Assembly: GCA_951406725.2 (NCBI GenBank)
Contig: OX597843.1
Span: 10,292,001-10,356,000, forward strand
DNA: 64,000 nt
Reading direction: 5' to 3'
DNA from: Octopus vulgaris
Lineage: Eukaryota
The number at the start of each line of letters is the position of its first letter. Position 1 is the stretch's first letter. A program made the position numbers and the translations under genes. Positions 20,575 to 61,054 of the stretch are shown here, one piece after another. The notes beneath the pieces were generated by a model. The model ran no database searches. It worked only from the letters and a program-made list of their open reading frames with translations, and had not been told where the DNA came from.

Positions 20575-20793
20575 CAGTGGTTTTCAACCAGAGTTCCACG
20601 GAACCTTAGGGTTCCGCCAGTACAGTCCAGGGGTTCCGCAGGAAGTTACAAAACTGCTAAAATCGGCAGTAATTTTTAATTCTCCTGTGCAGATATGTGT
20701 GCATAAGACTATTAAATTATTGCACAGGGTCTCCTCGAGCCAGTGGTATGTTTCCCTGGGGTTCCGCTCCAGCAAAAAGTTTGAAAAGCACTG
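20575..20793 (+). mobile_element. hAT-type MITE (219 bp) with 8-bp TSD
   Basis: Terminal inverted repeats (TIRs) cagtggttttcaa / ttgaaaagcactg; TSD ATATAGAG on both sides; interrupts an old SINE A head. Confidence 0.9.
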
Positions 20794-54845: not shown

Positions 54846-55687
54846 ACACATCTATACATGTACACACACCACAAATCTGTATACACACAAACACACACAT
54901 ATACACATACATACATAGCTATCTATAAATTGCTATACACTGCGAGCCCCATGCTAGTAGGGTGTTAAGAGCACCATCCGAGCTTGATCGTTGCCAGAGC
55001 AGCTATCTGGCCTCCGTGCCGGTGGCACATAAAAGACACCATTCGAGCATGATCATTACCAGCATCGCCTTACTGGCACCTGTTGTATATATATACAACA
55101 CCGAGTGTTGTGAGTGTTTATTGAGCGAAACACCTAAAGCCCCACGAGGCTCCGGCAGGGGGTGGCGAACCCTGCTGTACTCTTTCGCCGCAACTTTCTC
55201 TCACTCTTTCTTCTGTTGGCCTGCTCACTTAGCCAGCAGGGTGGCGTCATTTAAAGGCTAAGACAATGCGAAGCGCATTGTGACCAGCGATGTGTAACAA
55301 CATCTGATAGCCTGGTCGGTCACGGTGATCACGGTGATATATAATGTGTGTGTGTATGTATGTAAAGGGTAAAGACCCCTTTAGACACGTATGACCATGG
55401 GATCACACCTAGAATTTCCCATCCAATGCACAAGACAAGGCAAGGTTGTTTTATCGAAGACTAGTTGTCAGTCATGCATACCAGCCTCCTCCTCTCTGTG
55501 CCACCGATGTTATCCAAGGGAAAAACAAAGGGGCTGTTACAGTATGGCACCAGTGACATCGCAACTCATTTCTACAGCTGAATGAACAGAAGCAATGAGA
55601 AATAAAGTGTCTTGCTCAAGAACACAACACACAGCCTGGTCAGGAATCGAACTCACTATCTCATGACTGTGAGCTAATGCTCTAACC

Positions 55688-56262
55688 CAGTGCTTTTCAA
55701 ACTTTTTGCTGGAGCGAACCCCAAGGAAACATTCCACTGGCTCGAGGAACCCCTGTGCAATAATTTAATAGTCTTATGCACACATATCTGCACAGGAGAA
55801 TTAAAAATTACTGCCGATTTTAGAGTTTTGTAACTTCTTGCGGAACCCCTGGACTGTACTGGCGGAACCCTAAGGTTCCGCGGAACCCTGGTTGAAAACC
55901 ACTGCCCTATATATTCAGCCAGTCAGGTATCCCTAGTTTCCTGTTGCACTGCCTGGACAGTTTGATCTCTTTTTAGCCCTACCCATTTGTGTTCAGAGCA
56001 GTATGCCTGTATCGAAGTTGATTTTGTGAATCCCCTATATCAGTGCTTTTCAAACTTTTTGCTGGAGCGGAACCCCAAGGAAACATTCCACTGGCTCGAG
56101 GAACCCCTGTGCAATAATTTAATAGTCTTATGCACACATATCTGCACAGGAGAATTAAAAATTACTGCCGATTTTAGAGTTTTGTAACTTCTTGCAGAAC
56201 CCCTGGACTGTACTGGCGGAACCCCTGGACTGTACTGGTGGAACCCTGGTGGAAAACCACTG
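55688..56262 (-). mobile_element. composite of two hAT MITEs (55688-55904, 56041-56262) around a 136-bp passenger
   Basis: Outer TSD CTCTAACC, inner duplication CCCTATAT; inserted in a SINE D head. Confidence 0.9.
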
Positions 56263-56432
56263 CTCTAACCATTGAGCCATCTGAATGCTAAAGTGTTAAA
56301 TTTCTTCCATTTTATATGTATCAACATGGGAATTCTCATTACATATTCGCACCACAGAATCAAAATTATAAAAGGGTGGGAAAAAAAAATTCACTGCTTT
56401 TATTTTATTTATTTTACATAAAAATAACTCCC

Positions 56433-57162: not shown

Positions 57163-58221
<1,059 letters not shown>

Positions 58222-58712
58222 TTGTTGAAGCCCTTGCGGAAAATAACAGCTGAAACTAAGTTAGTACATGGGTAATTATTTTATTTCGTATATTTTTCAC
58301 TTGTTTATTGCTATGGTTTTGTGTTGAGTTTGATCTGAGAACATAATCTTTTGTGGTGAATGACGATTTGACGTCTATATCTAGCATGTTGACTGTCCAC
58401 TTTTCGTGTTCAGTCCTTAATTGGTATATATAAATATTTTAATCTTCGGATTCTTTTTAATATGCTAGACCACTGGTCTTAATTGATAAATATCAATTTC
58501 TACCCTTAATTAATTTTATATAAATAAATATGTTCTCTAACCGATAAATTAACTGCTGCTAATTATTAGCTGCAGGCTAGTTTTCTCGGGTTTCAACGCG
58601 CCAAAGTAAAGGCATTTGAAAGATATATTCAAATGTAATAGGCTGAACTCCATGCACGCGATATTTCGGTATCGTGTTTGCATCTAGTCCAGCAAATTAC
58701 ATTTATAACGGA

Positions 58713-58777
58713 CCATGCTGATGATGGCTGCAGTTTTCCTTGCGGAAAATAACAGCTGAAACTAAGTTAGTACATGG
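58713..58777 (+). ncRNA. type I hammerhead ribozyme motif
   Basis: ccatg-CTGATGA-t-ggctg cag ttttcc ttgc ggaaaa taa cagct-GAAA-ctaagtta-GTA-catgg; predicted cut after A58772. Confidence 0.85.
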
Positions 58778-59219
58778 GTAATTATTTTATTTCGTATATT
58801 TTTCACTTGTTTATTGCTATGGTTTTGTGTTGAGTTTGATCTGAGAACATAATCTTTTGTGGTGAATGACGATTTGACGTCTATATCTAGCATGTTGACT
58901 GTCCACTTTTCGTGTTCAGTCCTTAATTGGTATATATAAATATTTTAATCTTCGGATTCTTTTTTAATATGCTAGACCACTGGTCTTAATTGATAAATAT
59001 CAATTTCTACCCTTAATTAATTTTATATAAATAAATATGTTCTCTAACCGATAAATTAACTGCTGCTAATTATTAGCTGCAGGCTAGTTTTCTCGGGTTT
59101 CAACGCGCCAAAGTAAAGGCATTTGAAAGATATATTCAAATGTAATAGGCTGAACTCCATGCACGCGATATTTCGGTATCGTGTTTGCATCTAGTCCAGC
59201 AAATTACATTTATAACGGA

Positions 59220-59284
59220 CCATGCTGATGATGGCTGCAGTTTTCCTTGCGGAAAATAACAGCTGAAACTAAGTTAGTACATGG
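59220..59284 (+). ncRNA. type I hammerhead ribozyme motif
   Basis: Identical to 58713-58777. Confidence 0.85.
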
Positions 59285-59725
59285 GTAATTATTTTATTTC
59301 GTATATTTTTCACTTGTTTATTGCTATGGTTTTGTGTTGAGTTTGATCTGAGAACATAATCTTTTGTGGTGAATGACGATTTGACGTCTATATCTAGCAT
59401 GTTGACTGTCCACTTTTCGTGTTCAGTCCTTAATTGGTATATATAAATATTTTAATCTTCGGATTCTTTTTTAATATGCTAGACCACTGGTCTTAATTGA
59501 TAAATATCAATTTCTACCCTTAATTAATTTTATATAAATAAATATGTTCTCTAACCGATAAATTAACTGCTGCTAATTATTAGCTGCAGGCTAGTTTTCT
59601 CGGGTTTCAACGCGCAAAGTAAAGGCATTTGAAAGATATATTCAAATGTAATAGGCTGAACTCCATGCACGCGATATTTCGGTATCGTGTTTGCATCTAG
59701 TCCAGCAAATTACATTTATAACGGA

Positions 59726-59790
59726 CCATGCTGATGATGGCTGCAGTTTTCCTTGCGGAAAATAACAGCTGAAACTAAGTTAGTACATGG
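59726..59790 (+). ncRNA. type I hammerhead ribozyme motif
   Basis: Identical to 58713-58777. Confidence 0.85.
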
Positions 59791-60235
59791 GTAATTATTT
59801 TATTTCGTAGATATTTTTCACTTGTTTATTGCTATGGTTTTGTGTTGAGTTTGATCTGAGAACATAATCTTTTGTGGTGAATGACGATTTGACGTCTATA
59901 TCTAGCATGTTGACTGTCCACTTTTCGTGTTCAGTCCTTAATTGGTATATATAAATATTTTAATCTTCGGATTCTTTTTTTAATATGCTAGACCACTGGT
60001 CTTAATTGATAAATATCAATTTCTACCCTTAATTAATTTTATATAAATAAATATGTTCTCTAACCGATAAATTAACTGCTGCTAATTATTAGCTGCAGGC
60101 TAGTTTTCTCGGGTTTCAACGCGCCAAAGTAAAGGCATTTGAAAGATATATTCAAATGTAATAGGCTGAACTCCATGCACGCGATATTTCGGTATCGTGT
60201 TTGCATCTAGTCCAGCAAATTACATTTATAACGGA

Positions 60236-60300
60236 CCATGCTGATGATGGCTGCAGTTTTCCTTGCGGAAAATAACAGCTGAAACTAAGTTAGTACATGG
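60236..60300 (+). ncRNA. type I hammerhead ribozyme motif
   Basis: Identical to 58713-58777. Confidence 0.85.
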
Positions 60301-60743
60301 GTAATTATTTTATTTCGTATATTTTTCACTTGTTTATTGCTATGGTTTTGTGTTGAGTTTGATCTGAGAACATAATCTTTTGTGGTGAATGACGATTTGA
60401 CGTCTATATCTAGCATGTTGACTGTCCACTTTTCGTGTTCAGTCCTTAATTGGTATATATAAATATTTTAATCTTCGGATTCTTTTTTTAATATGCTAGA
60501 CCACTGGTCTTAATTGATAAATATCAATTTCTACCCTTAATTAATTTTATATAAATAAATATGTTCTCTAACCGATAAATTAACTGCTGCTAATTATTAG
60601 CTGCAGGCTAGTTTTCTCGGGTTTCAACGCGCCAAAGTAAAGGCATTTGAAAGATATATTCAAATGTAATAGGCTGAACTCCATGCACGCGATATTTCGG
60701 TATCGTGTTTGCATCTAGTCCAGCAAATTACATTTATAACGGA

Positions 60744-60808
60744 CCATGCTGATGATGGCTGCAGTTTTCCTTGCGGAAAATAACAGCTGAAACTAAGTTA
60801 GTACATGG
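60744..60808 (+). ncRNA. type I hammerhead ribozyme motif
   Basis: Identical to 58713-58777. Confidence 0.85.
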
Positions 60809-60958
60809 GTAATTATTTTATTTCGTATATTTTTCACTTGTTTATTGCTATGGTTTTGTGTTGAGTTTGATCTGAGAACATAATCTTTTGTGGTGAATGA
60901 CGATTTGACGTCTATATCTAGCATGTTGACTGTCCACTTTTCGTGTTCATCCTTAATT

Positions 60959-61054
<96 letters not shown>

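What the first reader, a model, noticed from the sequence alone, without database searches (positions are those of the whole stretch)
55680..56270. Cointegrate-like hAT MITE composite with nested TSDs
Seen: CTCTAACC-[MITE]-CCCTATAT-120 bp-CCCTATAT-[MITE]-CTCTAACC, with both MITEs in the same orientation. Removing the whole structure restores a SINE D head. Neither MITE has matching TSDs on its own sides. Inference: either a MITE plus flanks was tandemly duplicated and then moved as a composite capturing 128 bp of host DNA, or a small circle was fused in by recombination or replicative transposition. The latter is unexpected for a cut-and-paste hAT.
Basis: partly seen in the sequence, partly recalled or inferred. 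Interest (0 to 1): 0.7.

Follow-up and report, generated by a model that had tools for sequence, protein, structure and literature searches.

The report
Twin mini-transposon carrying its swapped flanks
In an animal genome (likely an octopus), two copies of a small jumping element enclose that element's own former right and left neighbouring DNA in swapped order, and the pair likely arose when one insertion was duplicated together with its flanks and then likely jumped as a single 575-base unit, a layout known from maize transposons that would let tiny non-coding elements carry host DNA to new places.

Summary
Contigs of public runs show that the 136-bp passenger is chimeric: 53 bp of the right flank of a donor MITE insertion, a 10-nt filler, then 73 bp of its left flank. 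The donor's right side appears in 4 of 5 runs and its left side in 2 of 5; both adjoin the MITE. A diverged MITE-free paralogue reads left flank, single CCCTATAT, right flank. The predicted permuted donor therefore exists and carries the MITE, which argues against a replicative cointegrate with a MITE-free circle. The same junction lies in 5 of 5 runs (4 organism labels) at about 1-6 times single-copy depth, with sequence variants. Best reading (0.45): 353-bp tandem duplication at the donor, then cut-and-paste of the dimer by its outer ends. Rivals: one-step sister-end alternative transposition (0.2), or repair or circle recombination into a resident MITE (0.25). The layout matches maize Ac/Ds Composite Insertions, but comes from one insertion, with arms about 100-fold shorter, in an animal. 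No whole genome or spanning read was available. The scan's notes showed no such case on other DNA.

The parts
55680..55687 (+). Outer target site, left copy (CTCTAACC; native to the SINE head; TA at positions 4-5)
55688..55904 (+). MITE copy 1, 217 bp, imperfect 15-nt TIRs (13 of 15), 8-bp subterminal hairpin at 55862-55881, lacks one base that the other two window copies have (alignment column 29)
55905..55912 (+). Inner TSD, copy 1 (CCCTATAT): the right-hand TSD of the donor insertion
   Evidence: records carrying MITE end + this 8-mer in 4 of 4 runs
55905..55957 (+). R-prime: first 53 bp of the donor's right flank, TSD included
   Evidence: contigs match to 55957 (55954 in X1) and go on with other DNA in 4 of 4 runs
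55958..55967 (+). 10-nt filler at the new junction (end-joining-type scar; template not identified)
   Evidence: lies between the two donor breakpoints; no significant local template
55968..56040 (+). L-prime: last 73 bp of the donor's left flank, TSD included
   Evidence: contigs join at 55968 from other DNA in X1 and X17 (2 of 4); the X17 one runs on to 56044
56033..56040 (+). Inner TSD, copy 2 (CCCTATAT): the left-hand TSD of the donor insertion
56041..56262 (+). MITE copy 2, 222 bp; a 22-bp subterminal unit is duplicated in place of the hairpin arm; right TIR 12 of 15
   Evidence: (D5)
56263..56270 (+). Outer target site, right copy (CTCTAACC)
   Evidence: X15 and X2 contigs over 56242-56420
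55566..56280 (-). Host tRNA-type SINE interrupted by the composite (approximate limits)
20575..20793 (-). Solo copy of the same MITE with its own perfect TSD CTCTATAT (control; not part of the composite)

Best explanation
The insert is two copies of a hAT-type MITE enclosing the right and left flanks of one donor insertion in swapped order, and it likely formed when a 353-bp segment holding that MITE was duplicated head-to-tail at the donor and the resulting dimer was then likely cut out by its outer ends and pasted into a SINE head, making the new CTCTAACC duplication. Steps: (1) a MITE inserted at the donor and duplicated CCCTATAT (donor-with-MITE shown by contig paths; pre-insertion state shown by a diverged paralogue); (2) a segment from 73 bp left to 53 bp right of the element was duplicated by an end-joining or template-switch event leaving a 10-nt filler (junction shown; that it happened in place at the donor is inferred); (3) a Buster/Charlie-type transposase supplied in trans used the 5' end of the first copy and the 3' end of the second (inferred from the outer TSD with TA at 4-5); (4) the junction then multiplied, by further jumps or by unequal exchange between the two MITEs (multi-copy state suggested by depth and variants; route unknown).
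For: Permuted donor: loose ends behind 55954/55957 in 4 of 4 runs and before 55968 in 2 of 4 runs. Donor carries the MITE: all listed records upstream of R-prime match the MITE end at 55896-55904, and depth is roughly conserved across the shared nodes (X1 316 in / 341 node / 375 out; X15 110/129/116; X16 28.5/31/25; X17 11/14; left side X1 365 into 382, X17 16 into 19). MITE-free paralogue: X17 record 23 matches 56006-56040 at 30 of 35 and continues with the first 7 letters of R-prime (about 1e-4 by chance). Junction contig depth is 4.8-5.8 (X1), 2.1-2.8 (X15), 3.5 (X16), 3.5 (X2), 1.2-1.6 (X17) times that of donor or flank contigs, with variants at 55996, 55998, 56005, 56014, as expected if the dimer spread as a unit. 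Tandem duplications of similar size are common here: four with units of 332-506 bp in 64 kb, enough to enclose about 1.2% of random 233-bp inserts. All 3 window TSDs have TA at 4-5 (about 0.001 by chance), the TcBuster preference (PMC3499496, passages). Movement of two direct elements as one macrotransposon is stated for Ac/Ds in PMC4270019 (Discussion read).
Against: No dimer or array at the donor was shown and no second outer TSD was seen: contigs break at every MITE. The multi-copy signal could be arrays at one locus, and contig depth is a rough measure. The left donor flank was not seen in X15, X16 or X2 and the right donor flank not in X2. MITE1 and MITE2 are close to the family majority sequence (table 3), so their likeness does not prove common descent from the donor copy; passenger-versus-donor divergence (5 of 114) and MITE1-versus-MITE2 (4 of 205) do not differ significantly (p = 0.29) and do not separate the models. 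The base-rate count left out the 361-bp and the 154-208-bp arrays and a 686-bp spacing, and is from one window. No transposase was found (0 Pfam hits in 27 of 117 frames scanned).
Confidence: 0.45

Rival explanations
1. One-step alternative transposition: after replication the transposase paired the 5' end of the donor MITE on one sister chromatid with the 3' end on the other (hybrid element insertion) and inserted them into the SINE head while each was still attached to its flank; the two arms broke or stopped re-replicating after 53 and 73 bp and were end-joined. This is a miniature Composite Insertion and is semi-replicative; later copies moved as a macrotransposon.
For: Gives exactly this anatomy in one event: maize Composite Insertions hold the donor's flanks in switched order, fused at a new end-joined junction and bounded by an 8-bp TSD (PMC4270019, sections 9 and 11 read). 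[quoted passage not shown] The filler fits end-joining of two broken ends. Other MITE-end > short spacer > MITE-start joints occur in the family (table 5c).
Against: Maize arms are 4.8-18.9 kb and come from two separate elements; both arms stopping within 75 bp is a narrow outcome. No reciprocal damaged donor allele was seen. The second spacer type sits in a repetitive target and is explained as well by double insertion.
Confidence: 0.2
2. Break repair at a resident MITE: a solo MITE already sat at CTCTAACC; a break in it was repaired from the donor copy, synthesis ran past the donor's ends into both flanks (or switched template from right flank to left flank), and the ends were joined with filler.
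For: Short tracts and filler are typical of aborted gap repair (recalled); gap filling is the route reported for most single-copy animal Pack-TIRs (PMC8277862, passages). Read by eye, the donor has a shared TTCTTTT motif next to both breakpoints (loose ends).
Against: Only one locus can be the origin, so if the 2-6 copies are dispersed most of them still moved as a unit. Two ends invading the same template would normally anneal within the MITE (recalled). No solo allele was shown (contigs cannot show one).
Confidence: 0.15
3. A 353-bp circle holding the donor MITE and its flanks, closed by end-joining, integrated by homologous recombination into a resident MITE at CTCTAACC.
For: Permuted order and one end-joined junction are what a circle gives; 353 bp is in the size range of dinucleosomal small circles (recalled).
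Against: Needs a crossover over about 217 bp of homology; gives one copy, so further amplification is still needed; no direct evidence of a circle.
Confidence: 0.1
4. True cointegrate: the MITE at CTCTAACC transposed replicatively into a MITE-free 128-bp circle.
For: The nested TSD pattern has the form of a cointegrate.
Against: The chromosomal donor itself carries the MITE at the same CCCTATAT (records and depth flow), so the inner TSD predates the dimer; no MITE-free joint was listed in 4 of 4 runs.
Confidence: 0.03
5. Assembly chimera: a solo MITE at CTCTAACC was joined through the repeat to a passenger-bearing dimer from elsewhere.
For: No record spans a whole MITE; the left outer junction was not among the rows shown.
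Against: MITE1 and MITE2 differ at several places; the assembly resolves a nearby 506-bp array at over 99% identity; the inner junctions and the right outer junction are each seen in other runs.
Confidence: 0.05

Closest known systems
Maize Ac/fAc Composite Insertions (Zhang et al. 2014, PMC4270019; passages and sections 9 and 11 read)
   Same: hAT ends on the outside, 8-bp TSD, interior made of the donor's own flanks in switched order, fused at a new end-joined junction; the authors call the product a potential macrotransposon.
   Different: Maize: two separate elements in reversed-ends orientation, arms of 4.8-18.9 kb, single alleles recovered with twin deletions. Here: both inner ends carry the TSD of one insertion, two complete non-autonomous copies, arms of 53 and 73 bp, an animal genome, junction shared by 4 organism labels at about 1-6 times single-copy depth.
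Ac/Ds macrotransposons (Huang and Dooner 2008; not read, seen only as cited in PMC4270019, PMC3744419 and PMC2775673)
   Same: Two elements in direct orientation move with the DNA between them and get one new TSD.
   Different: There the two elements are independent insertions with different inner TSDs and a colinear interior (recalled); here the inner TSDs are identical and the interior is permuted.
P-element hybrid element insertion (as described in PMC2775673 and PMC3744419, passages)
   Same: Ends of the same insertion on two chromatids cooperate and each copy keeps one old and one new TSD.
   Different: Described products are flanking deletions, duplications and inversions, not a short self-contained insert.
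Animal Pack-TIRs (Tan et al. 2021, PMC8277862, passages) and grapevine Pack-MITEs (PMC2817404, passages)
   Same: A TIR element carries 100-300 bp of host DNA; some hAT cases are multicopy.
   Different: Cargo lies inside one element and comes from another locus; here it lies between two whole elements and is the element's own flanks.
Tandem dimers by double insertion (McGurk and Barbash 2018, PMC5932611, passages)
   Same: Head-to-tail DNA-transposon dimers (hobo, P) that can expand into arrays.
   Different: Their junction is a single 8-bp TSD and equals the outer TSD; here it is 136 bp with its own, different TSD at both ends.

Membership tests
hAT-superfamily MITE | 8-bp target site duplication | tested here: met
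   solo copy 20575-20793 with perfect 8-bp TSD; outer and inner 8-mers; feature from PMC3942097 passages
hAT-superfamily MITE | short TIRs (10-25 bp), small non-coding body, high copy number | tested here: met
   15-nt TIRs at 13 of 15 and 12 of 15; MITE bins hundreds to thousands of times deeper than unique flank; no Rfam match within the insert
hAT-superfamily MITE | cognate hAT transposase sharing the ends | not testable with these tools
   no genome held; 0 Pfam hits in 27 of 117 window frames
Buster/Charlie group of hAT | target consensus nnnTAnnn | tested here: met
   3 of 3 window TSDs; consensus of 48-62 flank contigs before the MITE start has TA at 4-5 in the 3 runs listed (table 7); consensus from PMC3499496
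Buster/Charlie group of hAT | transposase falls in the Buster clade | not testable with these tools
   no transposase sequence in hand
Composite Insertion (maize Ac/Ds type) | interior = donor flanks in switched order fused at a new junction | tested here: met
Composite Insertion (maize Ac/Ds type) | bounded by element ends and a new 8-bp TSD | tested here: met
Composite Insertion (maize Ac/Ds type) | made from two separate elements in reversed-ends orientation | tested here: not met
   both inner ends carry the same CCCTATAT, and a paralogue shows left and right flanks adjacent around one copy: one donor insertion
Composite Insertion (maize Ac/Ds type) | origin by transposition-coupled re-replication (reciprocal twin allele) | not testable with these tools
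   ancient germline event; no reciprocal product seen
Macrotransposon (two direct elements moved as a unit) | one new TSD around the outer ends | tested here: met
Macrotransposon (two direct elements moved as a unit) | same dimer at a precursor locus or at several loci with different outer TSDs | tested here: inconclusive
   junction depth 1.2-5.8 times donor or flank depth and sequence variants, but loci not resolved
Replicative cointegrate (IS26/Tn3 type; features recalled, PMC4471558 seen as search listing only) | two direct copies, each between one old and one new TSD | tested here: met
Replicative cointegrate (IS26/Tn3 type; features recalled, PMC4471558 seen as search listing only) | the fused-in DNA was element-free before the event | tested here: not met
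   donor flanks adjoin the MITE; no MITE-free joint in 4 of 4 runs; contigs do not prove absence
Pack-TIR / Pack-MITE | cargo inside a single element, between its two TIRs | tested here: not met
   two complete elements, four ends
Double-insertion tandem dimer | junction is one TSD equal to the outer TSD | tested here: not met
   136-bp junction with a different 8-mer

The most novel reading that the evidence does not exclude
A single cut-and-paste MITE insertion can copy itself semi-replicatively in an animal germline: the transposase pairs ends from two sister chromatids, the attached flanks break off after tens of bases and are end-joined, and the product is a self-contained twin element that carries its old neighbourhood, spreads as a new composite family across several species, and is one of several such TSD-bounded dimers this family makes, seeding satellite arrays.
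Probability: 0.2. Interest if true: 0.65.

Novelty: new variant of a known kind. Interest (0 to 1): 0.42.

Why it matters
It is a clean natural case in which the history of a composite can be read from four target-site copies and checked against its donor. If the dimer is dispersed, it shows that 200-bp non-coding hAT elements can transduce their own flanks on both sides and found new composite families in an animal, a route apart from Pack-TIR gap filling. If the one-step route is right, the maize Composite Insertion pathway works from one element and outside plants, and a census of such dimers in one genome would make it testable. The cargo is about 118 bp of non-coding DNA, so no direct effect on the host is claimed.

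Tried and rejected
No whole genome is held for this window, so donor, copies and outer TSDs could not be mapped. The donor flanks are not in the window (0 matches for two motifs with up to 2 mismatches), and the passenger has no second copy in it. Exact-pattern scans found nothing: passenger motif in metagenome contigs; MITE motif in metagenome, prokaryote and viral contigs. Rfam: no match within the insert; 12 weak matches on nearby microsatellites, all far below gathering score. Pfam: 0 of 27 frames. ARAGORN: no tRNA gene. Template for the filler: best local matches are 7 nt, expected by chance; rejected as evidence. The six columns shared by MITE1 and MITE2 against the solo copy first looked like shared ancestry, but one search lists no alternative letter at the substituted places at 10% or more, and the indel column is polymorphic in the family, so they are not diagnostic. 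Lack of cover is not counted as absence: right flank not covered in X1 and only partly in X16; donor-left not seen in X15, X16, X2; donor-right not seen in X2. A natural 128-bp tandem repeat as target was rejected: the passenger is chimeric and no unit-to-unit joint was listed. Scan notes: nothing by sequence, by words or nearby.

Full report
Observation. The window reads CTCTAACC (55680-55687), MITE1 (55688-55904), CCCTATAT (55905-55912), 120 bp, CCCTATAT (56033-56040), MITE2 (56041-56262), CTCTAACC (56263-56270). The insert between the outer 8-mers is 575 bp and the repeat period 353 bp. Two chance matches of 8-mers would have a probability near 7e-10. A solo copy at 20575-20793 has its own perfect TSD. 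Taking out the insert and one outer 8-mer gives a sequence colinear across the junction with another SINE copy in the window (83% over 137 columns) and restores a tRNA-type A box and B box on the minus strand (patterns recalled). The organism is probably an octopus: this rests on recalled SINE motifs and on unchecked scan notes for the same genome, not on a test of mine.

The element. The ends are imperfect 15-nt inverted repeats (13 of 15 in MITE1, 12 of 15 in MITE2). All 3 TSDs in the window have TA at positions 4-5 (about 0.001 by chance), and the consensus of 48-62 flank contigs before the MITE start has it too in the 3 runs listed (table 7). That is the TcBuster preference (PMC3499496, passages); 8-bp TSDs and short TIRs mark hAT elements (PMC3942097, passages). 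No transposase was found in 27 of the 117 frames of 120 aa or more, so the family label rests on ends and target sites. MITE2 differs from MITE1 by one base present at column 29, a substitution at column 157, a duplicated 22-bp subterminal unit in place of a hairpin arm, and one TIR substitution.

The passenger. No whole genome was held, so I laid contigs of 5 of the 24 listed public runs: X1, X15, X2, X16 on 55450-56420 and X1, X15, X16, X17 on 55896-56049. In one search, contigs of 4 of 4 runs match the passenger up to 55957 (55954 in X1, whose loose end begins with a one-letter variant of the same three bases) and then go on with the same unrelated sequence. In 2 of 4 runs (X1, X17) contigs come from unrelated sequence and join the passenger at 55968. 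So the passenger is 53 bp of one place, 10 nt found in neither, and 73 bp of another. In X2 depth over 55945-56010 equals that of the single junction contig, so neither donor side was seen there. Counted over both calls: donor-right 4 of 5, donor-left 2 of 5, fused junction 5 of 5 runs, under 4 organism labels.

The two places are the two sides of one insertion. Every listed record upstream of the 53-bp piece carries the MITE end and CCCTATAT, and the X17 donor-left record runs through CCCTATAT into the first 4 letters of the MITE. Depth is roughly conserved across the shared nodes, which it would not be if the donor paths bypassed the MITE: right side X1 316 in, 341 at the node, 375 out; X15 110, 129, 116; X16 28.5, 31, 25; X17 11 and 14; left side X1 365 into 382, X17 16 into 19. 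Two X1 figures come from depth bins, not listed records (3 of 28 records were not shown). No joint from 56040 back to 55913 was listed in any of the 4 runs. One X17 record (536 nt) matches 56006-56040 at 30 of 35 and continues with the first 7 letters that follow the other CCCTATAT (about 1e-4 by chance): a diverged, MITE-free relative of the donor site with left and right flanks adjacent around a single 8-mer. That left flank, MITE and right flank lie on one molecule is inferred, since no contig spans the MITE.

Copy number. The junction contig is 4.8-5.8 (X1), 2.1-2.8 (X15), 3.5 (X16), 3.5 (X2) and 1.2-1.6 (X17) times as deep as donor or flank contigs of the same run. Variants occur at 55996, 55998, 56005 and 56014; one X1 record is identical to the window over 55997-56046, another X1 record and the X17 junction contig share the 56005 and 56014 changes. 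This suggests a small family, but contig depth is a rough measure and cannot tell dispersed copies from arrays. The right outer junction is present at single-copy depth in 2 of 4 runs (X15, X2); the left one was not among the rows shown.

Mechanism. Shown: one donor insertion, its flanks swapped and fused with filler, a new family-type TSD outside. Inferred: how the dimer first formed and whether it arrived here as a unit. I put 0.45 on duplication at the donor followed by transposition of the outer ends. The window holds four other tandem duplications with units of 332-506 bp, enough to enclose about 1.2% of random 233-bp inserts (the 361-bp and 154-208-bp arrays and a 686-bp spacing were left out as likely retroelement-related), and the family is abundant. 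The one-step route (0.2) pairs ends from sister chromatids, as in hybrid element insertion (PMC2775673, PMC3744419, passages), and end-joins two short arms. Repair from the donor copy (0.15) or recombination of a 353-bp MITE-bearing circle (0.1) into a resident MITE give the same layout. MITE1 and MITE2 are both near the family majority, and 5 of 114 versus 4 of 205 differences do not separate the models (p = 0.29). A cointegrate with a MITE-free circle (0.03) needs an element-free donor. An assembly chimera (0.05) is not excluded without a spanning read.

Comparison with what is known. Maize Ac/fAc Composite Insertions have this anatomy: donor flanks switched and fused at a new junction, element ends outside, 8-bp TSD, potential macrotransposon (PMC4270019; passages and sections 9 and 11 read). 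They come from two separate elements and have arms of 4.8-18.9 kb, so this works like one but fails that membership feature. Pack-TIRs (PMC8277862, passages) and Pack-MITEs (PMC2817404, passages) hold cargo inside one element. Double-insertion dimers have a single TSD as junction (PMC5932611, passages). Passages of an Octopus repeat annotation (PMC13282606), an Arabidopsis long-read study (PMC12312487) and a Drosophila preprint (10.1101/2025.10.28.685065) described no such dimer. Nine searches listed no animal or MITE case with the element's own flanks permuted, judged from titles, abstract starts and the passages named; the library lacks most subscription papers and I opened no supplements, where repeat libraries might list such a composite.

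Verdict. Real, and better understood than at first reading: a twin hAT MITE around its own swapped flanks, shared by several related organisms. It is a new variant of a known kind. The most surprising reading offered is disfavoured, while a semi-replicative origin from one element stays open at about 0.2. Interest 0.42.

Noticed in passing
table 5c, joints from window 55904 to 55687 (runs X15, X16): Another head-to-tail dimer type of the same MITE: a 33-bp spacer that begins and ends with AGTTAGAC (TA at 4-5; first copy with one change in X15) and holds a third copy inside. Depth 347 in X16 (single-copy contigs about 5-8) and 103 in X15 (about 30-40): likely an array or amplified dimer of variable copy number; double insertion into a repetitive target would explain it.
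   Followed up: no
tables 5 and 5c, joints from window 55904 to 56044 (X1) and to 56050 (X15, X2, X16): Further MITE-end to MITE-start joints with other short spacers; in the X1 one the two terminal 8-mers agree at 6 of 8. 60 joints and 75 spacer rows were not shown.
   Followed up: no
window 20575-20793 (-): Solo copy of the MITE with perfect TSD CTCTATAT, 96% identical to MITE1.
   Followed up: yes
window 55862-55881 and 56197-56246: MITE1 has a perfect 8-bp hairpin near its 3' end; in MITE2 one arm is replaced by a second copy of the 22-bp subterminal unit, as slippage at a hairpin would give. The X15 and X2 contigs at the right junction start 21 bases inside the MITE, like those at the inner junction, which hints that this change is private to the window's haplotype.
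   Followed up: partly
window 57293-60973: A unit of about 490-506 bp occurs twice in one orientation (57293-58217) and 5.4 times in the opposite orientation (58232-60973, over 99% identical), forming a large imperfect palindrome; the unit holds CTCTAACC and an 89-bp piece of a dispersed repeat.
   Followed up: no
window 1-2037 and 10894-12939: A 2-kb block occurs twice at 98.5%, the first copy ending at the 100-N gap (2038-2137): likely a haplotype overlap at a scaffold join. Each copy holds a 361-bp unit repeated 2.3 times, the size of the retrozyme-like monomers in other scan notes (not tested).
   Followed up: no
run X17, record 23 (matches window 56006-56040): A diverged MITE-free paralogue of the donor site, which suggests the donor lies in an older repeat or duplication.
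   Followed up: partly
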